Assembly: GCA_963759225.1 (NCBI GenBank)
Contig: CAVWYL010000036.1
Location: 77,786 to 141,785 of the forward strand
DNA from: an uncultured Acidimicrobiales bacterium
GTDB lineage: Bacteria > Actinomycetota > Acidimicrobiia > Acidimicrobiales > VFJN01
Direction of reading: 5' to 3'
DNA length: 64,000 nt
Position 1 is the stretch's first letter. Each line of letters begins with the position of its first letter. A program made the position numbers and the translations under genes. The notes under the pieces are model-generated. The model worked only from the letters and a program-made list of their open reading frames with translations. It had not been told where the DNA came from and made no database searches. Shown here in pieces: positions 8,669 to 62,691 of this stretch.

Positions 8669-9296
8669 CTAGCGCTGCCGTTCGAGCTCGACCAGGCCGT
8701 CGCCCCCGGCGTCGGGGGCGAGCGCACGCCCACACGCCGCGCAGGTCAGGTCGTCGCCGAGCCGGGCGCCGCAGGTGCACACCCAGCCGATCTGCCGGGC
8801 CGGGTTGCCCACCACGAGGGCGTGGGCCGGGACGTCGCGGGTCACCACCGCGCCGGCCCCGACGAGGGCGTGGGGGCCGACGGTCGTGCCGCACACGACG
8901 GTGGCGTTGGCCCCGATCGTGGCGCCCGTGCGCACGGTGGTGGCCAGGAGCTCGTCCGCGGCCCTTCCGCACGTGCGCCCGGGGCTGATAGTCGTTGGTG
9001 AACACGACGTTGGGCCCGAGGAACACGTCGTCCTCGGCGGTCACGCCGTCGAAGACCAGCACGGCGTTCTTCACCGTGACACGGTCGCCGATGCGGGCCC
9101 CGCCCTCGACGAACGCGTGGTCGCAGATGTTGCAGTCGGCGCCGACGACCGCGCCGGGCAGCACGTGGGCCCAGGCCCAGACGCGGGTGCCGGGGCCGAC
9201 GTCGTCGCTCTCGCACAGCCCCTGGGGGTGGACGAAGACGCGGGGGTCGAGGGTCACGAGTGCACCCTTCGGCCGCACCGGTGACCCGATCGCCAC
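8669..9296 (-). CDS. Left-handed beta-helix sugar N-acetyltransferase, WbpD-like; one frame break
   Basis: ..VFVHPQGLCESDDVGPGTRVWAWAHVLPGAVVGADCNICDHAFVEGGARIGDRVTVKNAVLVFDGVTAEDDVFLGPNVVFTNDYQPRA is followed by RTGATIGANATVVCGTTVGPHALVGAGAVVTRDVPAHALVVGNPARQIGWVC. The layout follows the WbpD pattern (VFTN..PR, ARQIGW). The break lies near 8950. The true start may be GTG 9257. Confidence 0.65.
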
Positions 9297-9342
9297 TTCG
9301 TGGCGCAGGGCGGACTGTGCCTATGGACCTCGCGACGCTCGG

Positions 9343-10462
9343 TCATGCCGCCCCGCCCACGGCCGCCAGCAGCTCGCCCGCCACCCGCTCCTGCTGGGCG
9401 GCGGTGATGCCGGGGAACAGCGGCAGCGTCAGGATCTCGCCGGCCGCCGCCTCGGCCACCGGGAAGTCGCCGGGGCCGTGGCCCAGGTCGGCGTAGGCCC
9501 CGAGCAGGTGGACCGGGTGGGGGTAGTGGATGCCCGCCCCGATGCCGGCCCCCTGCAGCGTCGCCAGCACCGCGTCGCGCCGGGCGACCCGGACGACGTA
9601 GAGGTGCCACACGTGCTCGTTGCCGGGCAGCGTCGCCGGCAGGCCGACGCCGTCGTGGCCGCCCGAGCAGGTCGTCGTAGCGGCGCGGCGGCCTCCCGGC
9701 GCTGCTCGTTCCAGCCCGGCAGGCGGGCGAGCTTGGCCCGCAGCACCACCGCCTGGAGCGTGTCCAGCCGGGAGTTCATGCCGACGAGGTCGTGGTGGTA
9801 CTTGCGGGTGCCGCCGTGGTCCCGCAGGGCCCGCAGCGTGGCGGCGGTGGCGTCGTCGCCGGTGAGGACCGCGCCCGCATCGCCGTAGGCGCCCAGGTTC
9901 TTGCCCGGGTAGAAGCTGGTGCCGGCGACGACGCCCACGCCGCCGCTGCGCCGCCCGTGGTGGGTGGCGCCCTGCGACTGGGCCGCGTCCTCGACGAGGT
10001 CGACGCCGGGCGGCAGCACGTCCGCCAGGGCGTCGACCGGGGCCATCTGCCCGTAGAGGTGGACCGCCATGACGGCCCGGGTCCGGTCGGTGAGCGCCTT
10101 GGCCACGCAGCTCCGGGTCGATGAGCAGGTGGTCGGGGTCGCAGTCGACCAGCACGGGCTGGGCGCCGACCCGGCTGACCGCCTCGGCCGTGGCGACGAA
10201 CGTGTTGGCCGGCAGGATCACCTCGTCGCCGGGCCCGATGCCGCGGGCCCGCAGGGCCAGCTCGAGGGCGTCGGTGCCGTTGGCCACGCCGACGCAGTGG
10301 GCGGCGCCGGAGAACGCGGCGAACTCGTCCTCGAAGGCGGCCACGTCGGGGCCGAGGATGAAGGCGCCGGAGGCGGTCACCCGGTCCCAGCCGGCGGCCA
10401 CCTCGTCGGCCACTTGGGCGTGCTGGAGCTTCAGGTCGACCAGGGGGATGGGATCGGTTCAT
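9343..10462 (-). CDS. DegT/DnrJ/EryC1/StrS-family PLP sugar aminotransferase (WbpE/PglE-like); about four frame breaks
   Basis: ..IPLVDLKLQHAQVADEVAAGWDRV..FEDEFAAF..HCVGVANGTDALELALRA..VILPANTFVATAEAV continues as ..AVMAVHLYGQMAP..LVEDAAQSQGA..AGTSFYPGKNLGAYGDAGAV and then ..NEHVWHLYVVRV..GIHYPHPVH. ATG 10462 overlaps the upstream stop (ATGA). MNRS-IPLVDL is restored by dropping one base of the run at 10450-10452. Confidence 0.75.
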
Positions 10463-11155: not shown

Positions 11156-12437
11156 CGGCACCACGGCCGGCCTCGTCGACGACCCGGCGCACGATGGCCT
11201 CCACCGCCTGGCCGGACACGTCCCACGAGAGCGACCGCACGCTGGCGGCGGCGGCCACGGCATCGGCGTCGACCTCGGCCGGCGGCCGGGTGACGAGGCG
11301 GCCGAGCGCGTCGGCCAGGTCCTGGGCGGTCGGGGGCGTGTACGCGACGTGGTCGTTGTCGAGGACGATCCGGTTGTGGTCGGCGTCGTTGACGACCGGG
11401 GTGCAGCCCGCGGCCAGCATCTCGTGGGGCACGAGCGACACGTTCGTGGCCGACAGGACCAGGCCCGCGAGGCTGCGGTTGTAGAGCCGGCCCAGCTCGG
11501 CCGGGGTCATGACCCCGTGGTCGGTCGCGGGGAAGGGCATGCGCCCGACGGGGTCGCCGTAGAAGTGGATGTCGACGTCCGGGTGGCGGGACGAGAACAG
11601 CTCCAGCGCCAGCGCACCCAGGTCGAACGCCCGGCGGGGCGTGGTCGGCCGGGCGAAGAAGCACACGCCGGTGCGCCGGCCCGCGCCGCCGGAGGGGTCC
11701 TCCAGCCGGTAGTGGTCGAGGTCGCACCCGAAGTCGAAGTGGTCGGCGGGCATGCCGTACTCGGCGCGCAGCTTGCCGGAGAGCCACCGGCCGGCCGTGA
11801 TGCCGTGGAACCCGAACCCGTAGGTGGCCTCGGCCAGCAGCGCCTCGCCGCCGGCCGGGAAGAAGGAGGGCTCGAAGTCCTGGACGAAGTAGAAGCGCGC
11901 GCCCTTGGCCGGCGAGCCCGCGACCGCGTACGCGGTCGGCCATGCGGTGGCGATCACGGCGTGGGAGTCCTCGATGCCCGCCGCGGCGTCGCGCACCTCG
12001 GCCCGGACCCACGGCCACCACGAGCGCAGCACCCGCTCGTGGTCGTCGAGCGACCCGCCCCAGCGGTCGTAGAAGTAGAGGACGCACCGGTGCCCGGCCT
12101 GCTCGAGGGCGCCGACCATGCGCAGCATGGTGGTGTGGCCGCCGGACCCCTCGACGGGGGGCGTCATGACCCAGGCGACCGTCAGCGGCTCGCCCGGCAG
12201 GGCGGGCAGCGCGGCCGGGCGGGCGCCGGCCGCCTCGGCGGCCGCCACCACGTCCTCGCGGAGCACGTTGAGCATGTGGCTCGGCGGCGCCATCCGCTCG
12301 GACAGGCGGCGCAGCGCACGGGCGGCGACGCCGGAGGCGCCCTCGTGCTGCATCAGGCGGCGCGCCCGGCCCATCCTGCGGCCCACACTGCTCAGTGCGT
12401 CCATGCTCGACTCACTTCGCTCGCTTCGCTCGCTCAC
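11148..12437 (-). CDS. WsaF-like (rhamnosyltransferase-type) glycosyltransferase; intact
   Basis: ..PLTVAWVMTPPVEGSGGHTTMLRMV..CVLYFYD..ARFYFVQDFEPSFFPAGGE..GFHGITAGRWL..VCFFARPTTPRRAF. The YF.QDFEP motif is recalled from the WsaF family. The start is either GTG 12437 (it overlaps the flippase stop and reads VSERSERSESS) or ATG 12404 (MDALSS). Confidence 0.55.
   Translation of the reverse strand: MSERSERSESSMDALSSVGRRMGRARRLMQHEGASGVAARALRRLSERMAPPSHMLNVLREDVVAAAEAAGARPAALPALPGEPLTVAWVMTPPVEGSGGHTTMLRMVGALEQAGHRCVLYFYDRWGGSLDDHERVLRSWWPWVRAEVRDAAAGIEDSHAVIATAWPTAYAVAGSPAKGARFYFVQDFEPSFFPAGGEALLAEATYGFGFHGITAGRWLSGKLRAEYGMPADHFDFGCDLDHYRLEDPSGGAGRRTGVCFFARPTTPRRAFDLGALALELFSSRHPDVDIHFYGDPVGRMPFPATDHGVMTPAELGRLYNRSLAGLVLSATNVSLVPHEMLAAGCTPVVNDADHNRIVLDNDHVAYTPPTAQDLADALGRLVTRPPAEVDADAVAAAASVRSLSWDVSGQAVEAIVRRVVDEAGRGAGG
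12405..12437 (-). repeat. Junction repeat copy A: GTGAGCGAGCGAAGCGAGCGAAGTGAGTCGAGC
   Basis: The first 22 nt are identical to the copy at 47377. The TGA at 12436-12434 is the flippase stop. Confidence 0.8.
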
Positions 12438-13918
12438 GCCGCCACCTCCACGACCGGGGCCGGCGCCGCGACACGGAAGAGCTCGCCCCGCTGGTGCTGC
12501 CGCCACAACGGTAGGCCGACGACCAGGCCGTAGACCAGGGCCGACGCGAGCCCGCCGACGGCCAGCTGCGCGAAGTCCGTCGGGACCACGGCGAGGGCCG
12601 CCAGGGCGGTCAGCGCCATCAGGGCGCCGCCCAGCAGCGGCCGGGAGATCGGGCCGATGATCGACGCCGTCGTGACCCCGAGGCGGGACAGCGACCGCAT
12701 GAACGCCGGCATGACGACGACCAGCCAGCGCCAGCGACGTGACCCGCGGCCACCCCGGTGATGCCGCCGAGATGGGCCGCCACGATCAGCGTGGGGACGA
12801 GCGACACGAACCACAGCAGGTTGAGCCGCAGCGCCTCGTTGGACTTCCCCGCCGACACCAGGAAGTCGTAGGCGAGCTCGAGGGCCACCCGTGACGCGCC
12901 CAGCACCGCCAGGAACGCCAGCGGCCCGGCGGCGTCGGACCAGCGGGAGCCGTACACGAACCGCACGAGCGGGCCGCCCAGCACGCCGAGCAGCACGCAG
13001 GCGGGCACCACGGGCACGAACAGCATGCCGAGCGCCTGGCCGAAGCTCGCCCGGTAGCGCGGCGGTGTCGGCGCGCAGCTCGGAGAACGCCGGGAGGCTG
13101 ACGGCCCGCACGGTGGCGGAGAACGCCCCCACCGGCCAGCCCGACAGGTTGAAGGCGAGCACGTAGATGCCGAGCGCCGTCGGCCCGAGGACGTTGCCGA
13201 TCACGGCGTAGTCGACGTTCATCACCGCGAAGACCACGATGCTGGCGCCGGCCAGCGGCAGCCCGAACAGCAGGAGCCGGCGGGCCAGCGCCGCGTCCCA
13301 CGCCGGCCGGTAGCGCTTGGGAGCCAGCGCGAACGTGAAGGCGAACAGCACGATGTTGCCGATCACCCGCGACCAGGCGAGGCTCCAGGCCCCGAACCCG
13401 GCCGACGCCATGGCGATGGCCACCGCGGTCGTCACCGCGAACGACACCGTGTCGGCGATCAGCTTGCGGTCCTGGAGGAACTCGCGCTGGATGCAGGCCG
13501 ACGGCGTGGCCGAGAGGCCGGCGATGACGAGCGACAGGGCGAGGACCCGGATGGGGCCGGTGGCGGCCGGGGCCCCGAGGGCCTGCGCCAGCCACGGCGC
13601 CAGCAGCGCCATCAGCGCACCCAGGCCGACGCCCGAGGCCACGGAGAGGGTGGTGACGACCGGTGCGATGCGGTCGACCTCCTCGCGGTCCTTGGCCTGG
13701 ACGATGGCGACGCTCACCCCCAGCTCGCTGACGCTGATCACGACCGACAGCACCACGAGCGCGGCGGCGAACACACCGAACTCGGACGGTGCGATCAGCC
13801 GGGCCAGGACGATCCCGACGAAGAGCTGGCCGACCCGACCGATGATCGTGTTGACCGTGCTCCAGGCCAGGCCGCGGCCGACCTTGGCGCCCAGCGTGCG
13901 CTCGCGGCGCTCGCTCAC
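12434..13918 (-). CDS. Wzx-type oligosaccharide flippase (MOP/polysaccharide biosynthesis protein family); about three frame breaks
   Basis: GTG 13918 opens VSERRERTLGAKVGRGLAWSTVNTIIGRVGQLFVGIVLARLIAPSEFGVFAAAL, followed by 12-14 TM helices. The sequence continues in ORF 12619..13026 (LFVPVVPACVLLGVLGGPLVRFVYGSRW..) and returns to the first frame (..WLVVVMPAFMRSLSRLGV..). The breaks lie near 13050 and 12730. Confidence 0.7.
   Translation of the reverse strand: MSERRERTLGAKVGRGLAWSTVNTIIGRVGQLFVGIVLARLIAPSEFGVFAAALVVLSVVISVSELGVSVAIVQAKDREEVDRIAPVVTTLSVASGVGLGALMALLAPWLAQALGAPAATGPIRVLALSLVIAGLSATPSACIQREFLQDRKLIADTVSFAVTTAVAIAMASAGFGAWSLAWSRVIGNIVLFAFTFALAPKRYRPAWDAALARRLLLFGLPLAGASIVVFAVMNVDYAVIGNVLGPTALGIYVLAFNLSGWPVGAFSATVRAVSLPAFSELRADTAALPGELRPGARHAVRARGARLRAARRAGRPARAVRVRLPLVRRRRAAGVPGGAGRVTGGPRARLRLPGVGGEVQRGAAAQPAVVRVARPHADRGGPSRRHHRGGRGSRRWRWLVVVMPAFMRSLSRLGVTTASIIGPISRPLLGGALMALTALAALAVVPTDFAQLAVGGLASALVYGLVVGLPLWRQHQRGELFRVAAPAPVVEVAA
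13895..13918 (-). repeat. Junction repeat, weaker copy E: GTGAGCGAGCGCCGCGAGCGCACG (it forms the flippase start)
   Basis: It matches the consensus at 11 of the first 11 nt and again at GCGAGCG. Here it is clearly coding (VSERRERT). Confidence 0.5.
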
Positions 13919-23294: not shown

Positions 23295-24759
<1,465 letters not shown>

Positions 24760-24763
<4 letters not shown>

Positions 24764-25059
24764 GGTGCCTCCCCCAGGACCGGCGGGACGCGGAACCGGC
24801 CGTCCTCGATCGCCGGGGCCGCGGCCAGCACCTGGTCGCGGTCGAGGCAGGCGACCTCCTCGTCGGCCCGCAGCACGTTCACCAGCGGGTACGGGTGCGA
24901 GGTCGGCGGCACGTCGCCGACGTCGAGCGCCTCGACGTCGCGGGCGTGGTCGAGCACCTTGGCGAGCTGCTCGGTGAACATGTCGAGCTCGCCCTCGGTC
25001 AGCGTGAGCCGCGCCAGGGACGCGACGTGCGCGACGTCGTCGCGGGTGATCTGCGCCAT
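24760..25059 (-). CDS. gatC: Glutamyl-tRNA(Gln)/aspartyl-tRNA(Asn) amidotransferase subunit C
   Basis: [56 protein letters not shown]. It is 99 aa and sits directly upstream of gatA. Confidence 0.9.
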
Positions 25060-46133: not shown

Positions 46134-46141
<8 letters not shown>

Positions 46142-47307
46142 GGGCGAGGACCTCCTCACGGATGCGGTCGATGGTGCGGGCCAGGTCGGCGAGGGCGGCG
46201 TCGCTCGTGACCGGCTCGGGTGCGAGAGCCTTGCGCAGCTCGGCCTCGTCGAGCGACGTGCGCTCGGCGGCCACGGCCACGAGCACGTCGACGCCCGCAC
46301 CGGCGGGGACACCGAGCCGGTCGGCCAGGAACCGCCGCAGGTCGGCCTGCAGCAGGGCGGCGGCGTGCTGGGGCGAGCGGCTGCGGTCGAGCAGGTTGCC
46401 GACCGCCGCCACCAGCTCGGACCCGGCCACGGCCACCGGCTGGCGCTCGGGAACGGGGCGGCCGAGCCGCCGGGCGCGCCACAGCGCGTAGACGACGAAG
46501 GCCAGCGCCGCCTGCAGCAGGCCCCGCTTGACCCCGGGCGAGATCAGGTCGACGAGCGAGTCGCCGTCGCCGCCGGAGCTGCCGAGGAACCCCGGCTCCA
46601 GCACGGTGAGGCGGGTGCCCTCCCGGGGCGCCAGGAACGCCGCCGCCACCGGGGCGTTCTCGCCCTCGTCCAGCGCCGCGTTCACGAGGATGCCCGCCCC
46701 GCCCATGGCCACGACGGTCCCGTCGCCGTCCCCGGTGGCCACGATGTAGGCGCCGCCGGCGTACCTCGACGCAGGACGCCGAGCCCACGGGCGGCTGGTA
46801 GAGCAGACCGCCGTTGTGGGGCTCGATCCCGCCGGCCTCGATGCCGTCGAGGGCCTCGATCTCGCAGGCGGCGGTGAGGCGGGCCGGCGTCCCCAGCTCG
46901 GAGACCTCGTCGAAGAACCCCGACTCGGCGGGCGCGAACGACGACAGGGAGTCGGTGACGACCAGCACGCCGCCGCGGCGGACCCAGTCCTCGACCTCGC
47001 CGGTCTGGTCCTCGTCGAGCAGGTCCTGGAACAGCAGCACGACGTCGGGCGGCTCGGGGCCGTCGAGGTCCGGGAGCCGGTCCGCCACGTCCACCTCGGC
47101 GCCGAGGTCGCCGGCCAGCGCCACGAGCGCGCTGGTCCCGAGCTCCTCGTCCGAGCGGGGCGACAGCGGCGGCCCGCTGCTGCCGGCGCCCACGGCCAGG
47201 ACACCGAGGACGACGACGAGGGCGATGAACCCGCCCAGCAGCCACGGCTGGACGCCCCCGCCGCCGCGGGCCCGGGCGCGCTCACCGGTGCACCCTTCGG
47301 GGTGCAC
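46134..47307 (-). CDS. DUF4350-like membrane-anchored protein; one frame break near 46780
   Basis: The N-terminal TM helix is VQPWLLGGFIALVVVLGVLAV. It is followed by ..DVVLLFQDLLDEDQ..GGVLVVTD, and then, in ORF 46134..47285, ..VVAMGGAGILVNAAL..AALAFVVYALWRARRLGRPV. The family call is from memory and from the operon context. The start is GTG 47307 or GTG 47285. Confidence 0.55.
47288..47307 (-). other. Perfect 8-bp hairpin GTGCACCC-TTCG-GGGTGCAC covering the candidate start of the DUF4350 gene
   Basis: Read directly from the sequence. The loop is CGAA on the transcribed strand. Confidence 0.7.
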
Positions 47308-47310
47308 GCA

Positions 47311-47377
47311 GTGAGCGAGCGGCCCTCCGGGCCGGGTACCGCACTGTGCTGCTGGTTCGCTCGCTTCGCTCGCTCAC
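47311..47377 (-). repeat. Junction repeat copy C, a 67-bp inverted-repeat element (11-bp termini GTGAGCGAGCG / CGCTCGCTCAC)
   Basis: 47311-47321 is the exact reverse complement of 47367-47377. An inner hairpin GGCCC-TCC-GGGCC lies at 47321-47333. The TGA at 47376-47374 is the stop of the DUF4129 gene. Confidence 0.8.
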
Positions 47378-48027
47378 GGCACGCCCACCGGCTCGGCCCG
47401 GCGGCGGGCCTCGTCGGCCAGCGGGACGAAGCGGTCGCGGTCCCCGGGGCCCACGGGCGCGCCGCCGTACCAGGCGGCCTCGAACAGGTCGGTGGCGGCG
47501 GCGAAGGCGGGACCGGCGGCGGGCGCCACCGCCCGGACCTCGGCCGTGAGCTCGCCCGTCGTGCGCCCGACGAGGTCGCCGAGCACGCCCCGGGCCGCGA
47601 GGTCGCCGACGAGCACCCGGTAGCGGGCCCGCAGCGCGTCCCGCCAGCGGCCCTCGGCCTCGGCCCGGGCCACCTCGGCCGGCCAGTCGACCAGGTCCTC
47701 GTCCGCCGACACGACCACCCGTCCCCGGCCCCCGCGCCGGCCCGGCCCGGCGGCGCGCAGCCACGAGTCCCGGGTGCGCCAGATCAGGTAGGCCAGGCCG
47801 CCGAGCAGGGCCCCGAGGATGAGGTAGCCGACCCACACGGGCAGCCCCCCGAACGCCAGGGCGGAGCCGAGCCGGGCCAGCTGGTCGCCGATCCAGTCGT
47901 TGATCCGCTCGATGAGCGTGCGGTCGTCGGCCCACCGGTACTCGGGGCGCGACAGGATCTCGTCGGCGAGCTGCCGGGCCTGGTCCGGATCGTGGGTGGG
48001 CTCCGGCAGGTCGAGGGGCAGCGGCAC
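47374..48027 (-). CDS. DUF4129 domain membrane protein
   Basis: ..QARQLADEILSRPEYRW.. is followed by the TM helix LPVWVGYLILGALLGGLAYLIW and then ..TGELTAEVR..LFEAAWYGG. The gene is intact. Confidence 0.6.
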   Translation of the reverse strand: MPLPLDLPEPTHDPDQARQLADEILSRPEYRWADDRTLIERINDWIGDQLARLGSALAFGGLPVWVGYLILGALLGGLAYLIWRTRDSWLRAAGPGRRGGRGRVVVSADEDLVDWPAEVARAEAEGRWRDALRARYRVLVGDLAARGVLGDLVGRTTGELTAEVRAVAPAAGPAFAAATDLFEAAWYGGAPVGPGDRDRFVPLADEARRRAEPVGVP

Positions 48028-60616: not shown

Positions 60617-62676
60617 CCGCACAGGCCCGGCGCGACGACGTCGCCGAGAGCGTGCACGGCGTGACCGTGCCCGACCCCTACCGCTGGCTGGAGGACGGCG
60701 ACGATCCCGCCACCCGGGCGTGGGTCGAGGCCGAGAACGCCCGGACCCGGGCCACCCTCGACGCCCGCCCCGAGCGGGCCGGCCTCGTCGCCCGGTTCAC
60801 CGACCTGTTCTCGGCCGGGACGGCCGGGGCCCCGTCGATCCGGGGCGGGCGCCTGTTCTCGGTCGACCGCTGGGCGGGCCACGAGCAGGCCGTGCTCGTG
60901 GTGCGCGACGCCCACGGCGAGGCGGTCCCGGCCGCCCGCACGCTGCTCGACCCCCACGAGGTCACCGGCGACGCCACCGCCGCCCTCGACTGGTACGCGC
61001 CGTCCAAGGACGGCCGGCTGGTGGCCTACGGCGTGTCCACCGGCGGCGACGAGCGCTCGACGCTGGGCGTCGTCGACGTGGCCACCGGCGAGATCCTGGC
61101 CGACCGCATCCCCCACACCCGGGCGGCGTCGGTCAGCTGGGCGCCCGACGGGTCCGCCTTCGCCTACACCCGCTACCCCGACCCCGCGGTCGTGGGCGAC
61201 GAGGAGGCCAACTACAACCGCACCGTCCGCTGGCACATCCTCGGCGACGACCCGGGCCACGACGAGGTCGTGTTCGCGCACCTGCCCGACAAGACGGCGT
61301 GGCCGTCGGTCGAGCTGTCCCGGGACGGGCGCTGGCTGGTGATCGAGGTGTCGCTCGGCTGGACCCGCACCGACGTCTACCTGATCGACCGCACGACCGG
61401 GGACCGGACCACGGTGATCGAGGGCGTCGACACCGTGTCCTCGTTCACCGTGGTGGGCGACCGGCTCGTCGGCACCACCCTGCTCGACGCCCCCCGGGGA
61501 CGGGTGGTGACGGCACCGCTGGCGTCCCCGACCCCCGACCACTGGCGGACCGTCGTCGCCGAGTCGGACGACGTCGTCGAGGGCGTGGCCGTCACCGCGT
61601 CGTCGCTGCTGGTGGCGACCAGCAGGCGGGCCACCAGCCGCCTCGGTCGGGTCCCGCTGGCGGCGCTCGACGGCGACGCGCCGGTCGTGCCCGAGGACAT
61701 CCCGCTGCCCGAGCCCGGGTCGCTGGCCGGCGTCGCCGGCGACCGGGACAGCGAGACGGCGGTGATCGGCTTCACCTCGTGGGCCCGGCCGTCCGAGCTG
61801 TGGCGCTGGGTCCCCGGCGAGCCGCTGCGCCGGTGGAGCGACCTGCCCTCCCCCGTCGACCCCGCGGCGTACGCGGTGGGCGTCGACCGCTACCCGTCGA
61901 CCGACGGCGCCGAGATCACGCTGTTCACCGTGCGCCGCCGCGACGTCGCACCCGGCCCGGCCACGCCCACGCTGCTCACCGGCTACGGCGGGTTCGCGGT
62001 GTCGATGAGCCCGGCCTACAGCCCGACGGCGGTGGCCGTGGCCGACGACGGCGGCGTCTTCGCCGTCGCCTGCATCCGGGGCGGGTCCGAGGACGGCGAG
62101 GACTGGCACCGGGCCGGCATGCGCGACCGCAAGCAGCAGGTGTTCGACGACTTCGCGGCGGCGGCCGACTGGCTGGTGGCCGAGGGCCGGACCGGGCGCG
62201 ACCGCCTGGCCATCCGGGGCGGCAGCAACGGCGGGCTGCTGGTCGCCACCACGCTGACCCAGCGGCCGGACCTGTGCCGGGCGGCCGTGTGCGCGGTGCC
62301 GCTGACCGACATGGTCCGCTTCCCCCGGTTCCTCATCGCCAAGCTGTGGACGCCGGAGTACGGCGACCCCGAGGTGGCCGAGGAGTTCGCCTGGCTGTGG
62401 GCCTACTCGCCGTACCACCACCTGGTCGAGGGCACCTGCTACCCGGCCACGCTGGTGCTGACCGGCGAGGAGGACAGCCGGGTCGATCCCGCCCACGCCC
62501 GCAAGTTCGGCGCCGCGCTGGCGTGGGCCACGTCGTGCCCCGAGGAGCGGCCGGTGCTGGTGCGGGTCGAGTCCCGGGCCGGGCACGGCCAGGGCAAGCC
62601 GGCCTCCAAGCAGGCCGAGGAGGCCGCCGACGTCCACGCCTTCCTGCGCTGGCAGATCGGCGTGGGCGCCGGGTGA
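60613..62676 (+). CDS. Prolyl oligopeptidase (S9A serine peptidase)
   Basis: MTAQARRDDVAESVHGVTVPDPYRWLED.. opens the beta-propeller. ..GGSNGGLLV is the catalytic Ser motif, followed by ..GEEDSRVDP..AGHG. The gene is 687 aa and intact. Its ATG overlaps the RES stop (ATGA). Confidence 0.85.
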   Translation: MTAQARRDDVAESVHGVTVPDPYRWLEDGDDPATRAWVEAENARTRATLDARPERAGLVARFTDLFSAGTAGAPSIRGGRLFSVDRWAGHEQAVLVVRDAHGEAVPAARTLLDPHEVTGDATAALDWYAPSKDGRLVAYGVSTGGDERSTLGVVDVATGEILADRIPHTRAASVSWAPDGSAFAYTRYPDPAVVGDEEANYNRTVRWHILGDDPGHDEVVFAHLPDKTAWPSVELSRDGRWLVIEVSLGWTRTDVYLIDRTTGDRTTVIEGVDTVSSFTVVGDRLVGTTLLDAPRGRVVTAPLASPTPDHWRTVVAESDDVVEGVAVTASSLLVATSRRATSRLGRVPLAALDGDAPVVPEDIPLPEPGSLAGVAGDRDSETAVIGFTSWARPSELWRWVPGEPLRRWSDLPSPVDPAAYAVGVDRYPSTDGAEITLFTVRRRDVAPGPATPTLLTGYGGFAVSMSPAYSPTAVAVADDGGVFAVACIRGGSEDGEDWHRAGMRDRKQQVFDDFAAAADWLVAEGRTGRDRLAIRGGSNGGLLVATTLTQRPDLCRAAVCAVPLTDMVRFPRFLIAKLWTPEYGDPEVAEEFAWLWAYSPYHHLVEGTCYPATLVLTGEEDSRVDPAHARKFGAALAWATSCPEERPVLVRVESRAGHGQGKPASKQAEEAADVHAFLRWQIGVGAG

Positions 62677-62691
62677 GCGAGCGAAGCGAGC
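62673..62691 (+). repeat. Junction repeat copy D: GTGAGCGAGCGAAGCGAGC
   Basis: The 19 nt are identical to copies A and C. The TGA at 62674-62676 is the oligopeptidase stop. Confidence 0.8.

What the first reader, a model, noticed from the sequence alone, without database searches (positions are those of the whole stretch)
47282..47377. The 47.3-kb repeat copy is a 67-bp inverted-repeat element plus a tetraloop hairpin, and doubles as a 31-codon bridging ORF
GTGAGCGAGCG (47311-47321) is the exact reverse complement of CGCTCGCTCAC (47367-47377). These form 11-bp termini around a 45-nt core that contains GGCCC-TCC-GGGCC. Next to it lies GTGCACCC-TTCG-GGGTGCAC (47288-47307), an 8-bp perfect stem.

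Read from GTG 47377, the element encodes VSERSERTSSTVRYPARRAARSLRAPRRVHR. Its TGA (47284-47282) again overlaps a GTG in the context GGTGAGCG (47285).

This puts three GTGAGCG junctions and two nested hairpins within 95 nt, inside an operon whose other junctions are 2-nt gaps or overlaps. It looks like an inserted miniature element or a structured regulatory spacer that controls DUF4350/MoxR/DUF58 expression.
Basis: seen in the sequence. Interest (0 to 1): 0.6.

Follow-up and report, generated by a model that had tools for sequence, protein, structure and literature searches.

The report
MIRU-like start-codon insertion repeat
The 96-nt feature is one copy of a roughly 92-nt repeat found about 70 times in this uncultured Acidimicrobiales genome; it sits exactly on gene start codons and carries a tiny reading frame and an RNA hairpin that probably relay ribosomes to the displaced gene, much as MIRU repeats are thought to do in mycobacteria.

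Summary
The unit was drawn wrongly, though. It is not a 67-bp inverted-repeat element plus a separate hairpin. It is a single 92-nt unit (window 47286-47377, minus strand) of a dispersed repeat family.

- **Copies:** the genome holds 69 near-full copies and 17 fragments, in two subfamilies with periods of 92 and 89 nt. A 125-nt variant occurs in other Acidimicrobiales families.
- **Architecture:** copies start with RTGA and end with RTGA. Between the two lies a 30/31-codon ORF whose TGA overlaps the start codon of the real gene.
- **Insertion:** close relatives have an empty site at this DUF4129/DUF4350 junction, a single GTGAGC in which stop and start overlap. The element is therefore an insertion.
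- **Structure:** two hairpins covary. G.U pairs fall on the gene strand, which points to RNA. The 3' hairpin (-25 to -29 kcal/mol) pairs the new start codon.
- **Open frame:** none of 95 copies has an in-frame stop, against about 20 expected. All three unit lengths are 2 mod 3.

Best reading: a MIRU-like element that lands on start codons and stays harmless through translational coupling. It is not an operon-specific regulator. How it moves is unknown; no Y1 or Y2 transposase was found in 24 genomes of the genus. An earlier follow-up in this scan reached the same MIRU-like reading from another copy in this window. No RNA-seq check was possible.

The parts
47286..47377 (-). One 92-nt unit of repeat family A. 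It runs from the G of GTG 47377 to the base before GTG 47285.
   Evidence: Profile match E=1.7e-24. Copies have sharp ends. The site is empty in relatives.
47282..47377 (-). 31-codon bridging mini-ORF (VSERSERTSSTVRYPARRAARSLRAPRRVHR) plus its TGA stop at 47284-47282.
   Evidence: In 60 of 69 copies the frame is open and its stop overlaps the next start. None of 95 copies has an in-frame stop.
47374..47377 (-). 5' GTGA. TGA 47376-47374 is the stop of the DUF4129 gene and overlaps GTG 47377-47375, the mini-ORF start. This is probably the original start codon of the downstream gene.
   Evidence: The GC3 of the upstream frame is 0.99.
47282..47285 (-). 3' GTGA. The mini-ORF stop TGA overlaps GTG 47285-47283, the displaced start of the DUF4350 gene.
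   Evidence: The orthologs begin VSAP... from the same GTGAGC.
47280..47316 (-). 3' hairpin: an 8-bp outer stem, a bulged C, an 8-bp inner stem and a CGAA loop. It pairs the new start codon and holds an SD-like GAAGGG in the loop and 3' arm.
   Evidence: This copy folds at -29.2 kcal/mol and the hairpin appears in the MFE fold. It covaries. The probability that the 3' start is unpaired is 0.01.
47320..47334 (-). Central hairpin CGGCCC-GGA-GGGCCG (sense strand).
   Evidence: 99.5% of cells are paired. GC/CG and AU/CG swaps occur between copies and between subfamilies.
47356..47374 (-). 5' motif GAGCGAGCG-A-AGCGAGCGAA, an imperfect direct duplication. This part survives in the truncated copies.
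47311..47321 (-). Internal 'anti-start' segment (sense CGCTCGCTCAC). It can pair with either the 5' or the 3' RTGAGCG.
   Evidence: The 5' pairing is perfect only in this copy. The 3' pairing is the one conserved in the family.
47374..48027 (-). Upstream gene, a DUF4129-domain protein.
   Evidence: Pfam PF13559, E=1.6e-12.
46134..47285 (-). Downstream gene, DUF4350-like. In this assembly its frame changes twice relative to the G011 ortholog.
   Evidence: Pfam PF14258 match, weak. tblastn places ortholog residues 8-172 in frame -3 and 176-382 in frame -1.

Best explanation
Window 47286-47377 (minus strand) is one copy of a small, non-autonomous dispersed repeat of uncultured Acidimicrobiales.

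**What is shown.** The element is an insertion at the point where the TGA stop of the DUF4129 gene overlapped the GTG start of the DUF4350 gene (GTGA). Across the genome, copies lie at gene start codons in the gene's orientation.

**What is inferred.** The element is built to be translationally transparent, in these steps:
1. The host's Shine-Dalgarno site and start codon (or the stop of the upstream gene) now serve a 30/31-codon ORF inside the element.
2. That ORF ends in a TGA that overlaps a new, element-borne GTG (-4 spacing).
3. The new GTG and an SD-like GAAGGG are locked in a strong 3' RNA hairpin, so ribosomes should not load there on their own.
4. A ribosome translating the mini-ORF melts the hairpin, terminates on the GTGA and re-initiates on the displaced gene.

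On this reading the peptide itself has no function; only the open frame and its phase matter. How the element is copied to new start codons is unknown.
For: **Family and ends**
- There are 69 near-full and 17 partial copies with sharp ends.
- In 60 of 69 the ends are RTGA...RTGA and the mini-ORF stop overlaps the next start.
- In 55 of 67 the downstream gene follows in frame, and in 49 of 67 an upstream gene ends at the 5' TGA.

**Insertion**
- At this locus relatives G013 and G011 have a single GTGAGT/GTGAGC.
- In 20 independent filled/empty comparisons the empty site is RTGA in 17 and RTGAGC in 9 (read). A crude background gives about 20% and 4%.

**Frame**
- Unit lengths of 89, 92 and 125 nt are all 2 mod 3.
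- No in-frame stop occurs in 95 copies. Random placement of the observed substitutions gives about 20 (minimum 8 in 200 runs), and a control frame has stops in 11 of 95 copies.

**Structure**
- 89% of cells are paired, against 24-39% in the slid controls. The covariation score is 0.181 against 0.094 for shuffles, reached by 0 of 500.
- G.U pairs lie on the gene strand: 20 against 0 A.C in family B, and 31 U.G at one position in family A.
- The 3' start codon is paired (probability unpaired 0.01), whereas the 5' start is open at 0.35-0.67.

**Known parallel**
- MIRUs are described as inserting at start codons so that an internal ORF is coupled to the gene at -4 spacing (PMC12548453, citing Supply 1997).
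Against: - Translation of the mini-ORF and re-initiation are therefore inferred.
- Copies share ancestry, so the stop-codon and covariation statistics overstate independence.
- 12 of 67 copies, this one included, have the downstream coding frame out of phase with the 3' RTG within about 60 nt. Four of the 12 are followed by another full or partial repeat unit; the others look like 1-nt indels in G/C runs of a long-read MAG. Real frameshifts cannot be excluded.
- The 5' RTG matches the start codon of the empty site at only 11 of 16 loci, which is merely suggestive.
- At three empty sites the second codon is not A-initial. Insertion is therefore not a simple cut-and-paste at RTGA, or else the sites have since diverged.
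Confidence: 0.75

Rival explanations
1. A purely DNA-level selfish element of REP/RAYT, IS200/IS605-derived, IS91-like or classical MITE type. Its hairpins would serve single-strand transposition, and the open frame and RTGA ends would be by-products of where insertions are tolerated.
For: The element has subterminal hairpins, no clear target-site duplication and a narrow target. G.T pairs are also tolerated in DNA hairpins. Tandem arrays occur.
Against: No Y1 transposase (PF01797) was found in this genome or in 24 element-bearing genomes of the genus, and Y2 (PF04986) gave only one weak partial hit in 24. The 11-bp terminal inverted repeat is not conserved in the family. All copies that could be scored are co-oriented with the adjacent gene(s). 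Unit lengths hold to 2 mod 3, and in-frame stops are absent. None of this is required by a DNA-only model.
Confidence: 0.12
2. An exapted RNA regulatory module, for example a thermosensor or a protein- or ligand-controlled hairpin that masks the start codon. It would impose common post-transcriptional control on the roughly 70 genes that carry it.
For: The 3' hairpin sequesters the start and the SD-like GAAGGG in every copy. The hairpins covary on the RNA strand. An internal segment can pair with either the 5' or the 3' start region.
Against: The carrier genes are functionally unrelated. Presence varies between close species at orthologous sites, which fits neutral insertions better than a regulon. 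No Rfam family matches.
Confidence: 0.08
3. A structured spacer or attenuator specific to the DUF4129-DUF4350-MoxR-DUF58 operon.
For: It lies inside a tightly packed operon and is strongly structured.
Against: The same sequence occurs at 69 or more other loci. The orthologous operons of G013 and G011 lack it. No terminator-like or promoter-like signal was found.
Confidence: 0.02
4. The mini-ORF encodes a functional small protein family.
For: The frame is open in nearly all copies.
Against: Variability is not concentrated at third codon positions: 0.076, 0.134 and 0.159 for positions 1-3. The peptides of subfamilies A and B and of the 125-nt variant differ except where the nucleotides are conserved for structure. 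The peptide is an Arg/Ser-rich read-out of GC-rich DNA.
Confidence: 0.03

Closest known systems
Mycobacterial interspersed repetitive units (MIRUs; Supply et al. 1997, as summarised in PMC12548453)
   Same: Both are short dispersed repeats that sit at start codons or intra-operon junctions in the orientation of the genes. Both carry an internal small ORF whose ends overlap the flanking stop and start at -4 spacing. Both form tandem arrays whose copy number varies. For both, the presumed benefit is insertion with minimal effect on expression.
   Different: The host is a different class (Acidimicrobiia, uncultured soil and other environmental MAGs). No BLAST-level similarity was found in 400 sampled Actinomycetota genomes outside the order. 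This family also has two covarying RNA hairpins, one of which masks the new start codon. From my memory of the 1997 paper, not checked here, MIRUs were described as lacking dyad symmetry.
REP/BIME elements with RAYT (Y1) transposases
   Same: Both are small, GC-rich, hairpin-forming repeats present in tens to hundreds of copies per genome.
   Different: REPs are extragenic 20-40-nt palindromes found in both orientations and are linked to a RAYT gene. Here the unit is 92 nt, it is strictly co-oriented with genes, it sits on start codons, and no Y1 gene was found.
Bacterial MITEs (for example Correia/NEMIS, ERIC, RUP)
   Same: Both are non-autonomous, roughly 100-bp repeats that are co-transcribed with genes. 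Some MITEs carry ORFs or RNA structures.
   Different: MITEs are defined by terminal inverted repeats and a target-site duplication. Here the ends are direct repeats (RTGAGC...GTGAGC) that come mostly from the element, and the terminal inverted repeat of this copy is not a family feature.
Engineered bicistronic designs and natural uORF-mediated translational coupling
   Same: In both, a short leader ORF ends on the start codon of the main gene, so that translating ribosomes unfold a masking structure and re-initiate.
   Different: Here the cassette is a naturally mobile, multi-copy genomic repeat.

Membership tests
MIRU-type start-codon repeats | Short dispersed repeat located at start codons or intra-operon junctions, in the same orientation as the flanking genes. 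| tested here: met
   In 55 of 67 copies the downstream gene follows in frame, and in 49 of 67 an upstream gene ends at the 5' TGA. Relatives have empty sites.
MIRU-type start-codon repeats | Internal small ORF whose start overlaps the upstream stop and whose stop overlaps the downstream start (-4 spacing). | tested here: met
   60 of 69 copies meet this. The same holds in other genera and families of the order.
MIRU-type start-codon repeats | Tandem arrays whose copy number varies between strains or species. | tested here: met
   Dimers occur in G000 and arrays of up to 3 units with a 92-nt period in other MAGs. One orthologous locus has 2 units in L083 and 1 in G000.
MIRU-type start-codon repeats | Sequence relationship to the mycobacterial MIRU consensus. 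| tested here: inconclusive
   No MIRU sequence was available for comparison.
REP/RAYT | Associated Y1 (RAYT/IS200-type) transposase gene in the genome. | tested here: not met
   PF01797 was not found in G000. None of 24 genomes of the genus has it, although all carry the element.
REP/RAYT | Extragenic 20-40-nt palindrome occurring in both orientations. | tested here: not met
   The unit is 92 nt, co-oriented with genes, and overlaps start and stop codons.
MITE | Conserved terminal inverted repeats. | tested here: not met
   The helix 1-11/57-67 has a G.A mismatch in 39 of 42 copies and a G.G mismatch in 19 of 42. The true ends are direct repeats.
MITE | Target-site duplication derived from the target. 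| tested here: not met
   Where the empty site reads ATGACT, ATGACC, GTGGCC, GTGTCC or ATGGGC, the filled site still has AGC at the 5' end and GTGAG at the 3' end.
Rfam RNA families | Match to a curated covariance model. | tested here: not met
   No match at gathering score in the window. On 47200-47460 the only hit was a chance CRISPR-DR match at E=3.1.
Intrinsic terminator | GC-rich hairpin followed by a U-tract. | tested here: not met
   No terminator-like sites in 46900-47800. The hairpin is followed directly by coding sequence.

The most novel reading that the evidence does not exclude
Acidimicrobiales carry a superfamily of mobile 'translation relay' cassettes (89, 92 and 125 nt). These home to start codons by a mechanism that uses no recognisable transposase. 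They arose independently of mycobacterial MIRUs. That would imply a general, still uncharacterised start-codon-specific insertion pathway in Actinomycetota, and a natural hairpin-masked re-initiation device.
Probability: 0.4. Interest if true: 0.65.

Novelty: new variant of a known kind. Interest (0 to 1): 0.5.

Why it matters
MIRUs have been the one textbook case of a repeat that inserts on start codons and stays harmless by translational coupling, and how they move is still unknown. This second, sequence-unrelated family has about 70 copies per genome, clear filled and empty sites across species, three length classes that all preserve the reading phase, and a covarying hairpin that masks the new start. 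Together these give a clean comparative system for two questions: how an element can target start codons, and how termination-reinitiation copes with a strong structure.

There is also a practical point. These units disturb gene calling in Acidimicrobiales MAGs, producing wrong starts and spurious small ORFs. They could also serve as VNTR-like strain markers.

Tried and rejected
- **Rfam:** the gathering-score scan of the window and a permissive scan of the locus found nothing.
- **Transposases:** Y1 (PF01797) was not found in this genome or in 24 genomes of the genus. Y2/IS91 (PF04986) gave one weak partial hit in 24; its control genomes do not ring, so that control is uninformative.
- **Viral contigs:** no exact match to the 3' hairpin.
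- **Promoter/terminator scan:** nothing found.
- **RNAalifold on the mixed A+B alignment:** it recovered only the hairpin cores, because subfamily B is shifted by one column in the outer stem. Per-family counts were made instead.
rejected.
- **Indel variants as evidence for selection:** 7 of 9 remain coupled or fused in frame, but chance would give 2 in 3, and the assembly has indel problems. I do not use this as evidence.
- **5' RTG versus the start codon of the empty site:** 11 of 16 agree, which is not significant.
- **Literature:** searches for MIRU-like elements outside mycobacteria and for Acidimicrobiia repeats found nothing relevant.

Full report
**Observation.**
- GTGAGCGAGCG (47311-47321) is the reverse complement of CGCTCGCTCAC (47367-47377).
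- GGCCC-TCC-GGGCC lies at 47321-47333.
- An 8-bp stem with a TTCG loop lies at 47288-47307.
- On the minus strand, a 31-codon ORF runs from GTG 47377 to TGA 47284-47282, and that TGA overlaps GTG 47285.

The genes here are on the minus strand: a DUF4129 protein (47374-48027), a DUF4350-like protein (46134-47285), a MoxR AAA+ ATPase and a DUF58/VWA protein. The TGA at 47376-47374 is the stop of the DUF4129 gene.

**It is a repeat family.** Within the window's own genome (4.77 Mb, 37 contigs, 74% G+C), blastn finds more than 50 near-full matches at 82-93% identity. A profile built from them finds 69 near-full and 17 partial copies. In the alignment the copies have sharp ends. Read on the gene strand, subfamily A begins RTGAGCGAGCG and ends CCAGTGAG(C), with 92 nt from start to start and a 31-codon ORF. 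Subfamily B begins ATGACCGAGCG and ends CCAGTGACC, with an 89-nt period and a 30-codon ORF. The window holds a second full copy (subfamily B, 9254-9346) and several 5' fragments. An exact-pattern scan of one genome per prokaryotic species finds the 3' hairpin only in uncultured Acidimicrobiales/Microthrixaceae MAGs, sometimes as arrays of 2-3 units with a 92-nt period. All 24 sampled genomes of the genus carry it. A BLAST search with the family A consensus finds it, patchily, in the family and order, and not in 400 sampled genomes of the phylum outside the order.

**It is an insertion on a stop/start overlap.**
- At the orthologous DUF4129/DUF4350 junction, relatives G013 and G011 read ...GCGGTGAGTACG... 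and ...CCCGGTGAGCGCC.... Each is a single GTGA in which the upstream stop overlaps the downstream start. Most other relatives also have a single GTGAGC. This genome has GTGAGC, then 86 nt, then GTGAGC.
- G003 has a strongly diverged element of the same length, still with an open, coupled 31-codon ORF.
- I compared elements in other species with their orthologous sites in this genome. Together with this locus that gives 20 independent filled/empty pairs (read). The empty site is RTGA in 17 and RTGAGC in 9. A crude start-codon call gives background rates of about 20% and 4%.
- Where the second codon of the empty site is ACT, ACC, GCC, TCC or GGC, the filled site still has AGC after the 5' RTG and GTGAG at the 3' end. 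The repeated hexamer is therefore largely element-borne and is not a classical target-site duplication.
- Many copies keep a GGAGG-type Shine-Dalgarno site 6-9 nt before the 5' RTG. This fits the 5' RTG being the original start of the gene.

**Context across the genome.**
- In 60 of 69 copies the mini-ORF starts at an RTG that overlaps a TGA and ends at a TGA that overlaps the next RTG.
- Judged by GC at codon positions, 55 of 67 copies are followed in frame by a real gene, and 49 of 67 are preceded by a gene that ends at the 5' TGA.
- The exceptions are tandem units and about 7 copies, this one included, where the coding frame shifts within about 60 nt of the start.
- For the local DUF4350 gene, tblastn with the G011 ortholog puts residues 8-172 in frame -3 and residues 176-382 in frame -1, the frame of GTG 47285. 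The orthologs start VSAP... from the same GTGAGC. The first shift falls near a G5 run. I read these shifts as probable indel errors of a long-read MAG (completeness only 73% for 37 contigs), but real frameshifts are not excluded.

**Structure.** Two hairpins are conserved.
- The central one (CGGCAC-GAA-GUGCCG) is paired in 99.5% of cells. It shows GC/CG and AU/CG swaps within family A and between families A and B.
- The 3' hairpin has an 8-bp outer stem, a bulge and an 8-bp inner stem, and also shows compensatory changes: CUCACUG/CAGUGAG against CUCAUUG/CAAUGAG, and UA against CG or GC.
- Over the whole structure, 89% of cells are paired against 24-39% when the partners are slid. The covariation score is 0.181 against 0.094 in shuffles, reached by 0 of 500. 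The unpaired cells in the outer stem are the subfamily B rows, which pair in their own register.
- Wobble pairs lie on the gene strand. Family B has 20 G.U and no A.C. In family A, position 76/85 is U.G in 31 copies and C-G in 8. The selected structure is therefore that of the sense RNA, or of sense single-stranded DNA.
- The 3' hairpin folds at -25 to -29 kcal/mol. Across 58 copies folded with their native flanks, the 3' start codon is unpaired with probability 0.01, against 0.35-0.67 for the 5' start. The hairpin loop and 3' arm read GAAGGG, 7-8 nt before the GTG.
It is perfect only in this copy.

**The frame is kept.**
- None of 95 canonical family A copies from several species has an in-frame stop. 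Randomly re-placing the observed substitutions gives about 20 copies with a stop (minimum 8 in 200 runs). In the third frame, which has no stop in the consensus, 11 of 95 copies have acquired one.
- Variability is not concentrated at third codon positions, so the peptide itself is not conserved.
- In more distant genomes the architecture persists. There are tandem 31-codon units in another genus, family-B-like 30-codon tandem units in another family, a copy with a re-paired hairpin, and a 42-codon, 125-nt variant in two further families. All end CCAGTGAGCG or CCGATGAGCG.
- Unit lengths of 89, 92 and 125 nt differ by multiples of three and are all 2 mod 3. That is the phase needed for RTGA-to-RTGA coupling.

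**Mechanism.**
- Shown: the element is a multi-copy insertion at start codons, co-oriented with the genes. It has a conserved open frame bounded by overlapping stop/start tetranucleotides and an RNA-strand hairpin that pairs the new start.
- Inferred: ribosomes start at the original start codon, or arrive from the upstream gene. They translate the mini-ORF, melt the hairpin, terminate on GTGA and re-initiate on the displaced gene, so the insertion is nearly neutral.
- This is what a 2025 review says of MIRUs, citing Supply et al. [quoted passage not shown]
- The way the element moves is open. There are no family-wide terminal inverted repeats and no true target-site duplication. No Y1 transposase and no convincing Y2 transposase turned up in 24 element-bearing genomes, and there are no copies on viral contigs.
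- Truncated forms look like deletions between short internal repeats, for example CAGTG...CAGTGAG giving 33-nt in-frame forms. Some relatives have 11-nt remnants at this very junction, such as GTGAGCGAGCGGTGAG.

**Comparison and novelty.**
- Functionally this is a MIRU-type element. It meets the positional, ORF-overlap and tandem-array criteria.
- Sequence relationship to MIRUs could not be tested directly, and nothing similar was seen by BLAST outside the order.
- It differs in host (class Acidimicrobiia) and in having a covarying hairpin that masks the new start. From memory, not checked here, MIRUs were described as lacking dyad symmetry.
- It is not a REP/RAYT element, a classical MITE, a terminator or any Rfam family.
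- An earlier follow-up in this scan (e1-3570859) reached the same MIRU-like reading from a 5' fragment at 12405-12437 of this window. My analysis of the full copy, the empty sites, the structure and the frame statistics was done independently and agrees.

**Limits.** Copies are related by descent, so the counts are not independent. The assembly appears to carry indels.

Noticed in passing
window 46134-47285 (minus strand): Relative to the G011 ortholog, the DUF4350-like gene changes frame twice. Residues 8-172 align in frame -3 (47259-46765) and residues 176-382 in frame -1 (46757-46137). The first shift lies near a G5 run just after the start. This is either assembly indels or a compensated frameshift.
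   Followed up: partly
window 9254-9346 (minus strand): A second full copy of the repeat, of subfamily B (89-nt period, ATGACC...GTGACC, 30-codon ORF), at another gene junction.
   Followed up: partly
window 12416-12436 (-), 24731-24765 (-), 62673-62691 (+), 13896-13917 (-): Truncated copies that keep only the 5' GTGAGCGAGCG(M)AGCGAGCGAA part. Several genome-wide short forms end ...CACAGTGAG and are 33-nt in-frame versions, consistent with deletion between the internal and terminal CAGTG.
   Followed up: partly
L037, L038, L048, L035, L040, L044, L045 (the orthologous DUF4129/DUF4350 junction in relatives): Several relatives have RTGA-N9-RTGA at this junction, that is, a 4-codon bridging ORF. 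Examples are GTGAGCGAGCGGTGAG and ATGACCCCCGCATGAGC. L048 has GTGAGTGAGCGAACCATGAGC. These may be remnants of lost elements.
   Followed up: no
L033 (G003), same junction: A strongly diverged 92-nt unit (profile E about 2e-4) occupies the same site. It still has an open 31-codon ORF ending CCGATGAGC. It is either an old shared insertion or an independent hit on the same GTGAGC.
   Followed up: partly
L109 (G366) and L110 (G226), other families of the order: A longer 125-nt, 42-codon variant whose 3' hairpin is extended at the tip. The outer stem and the CCAGTGAGCG end are retained.
   Followed up: partly
G000 C16:11482-11577 and C36:157432-157527: Two copies with nearly identical flanks on different contigs (381-codon upstream frames, same downstream sequence). 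This is probably a duplicated segment or an overlap of contig ends.
   Followed up: no
G000 genome-wide: About 7 element-bearing genes show a coding-frame shift within about 60 nt of the start. In 5 of them the shift is +2, as expected from 1-nt deletions in G/C runs. This suggests systematic homopolymer indels in this MAG.
   Followed up: partly
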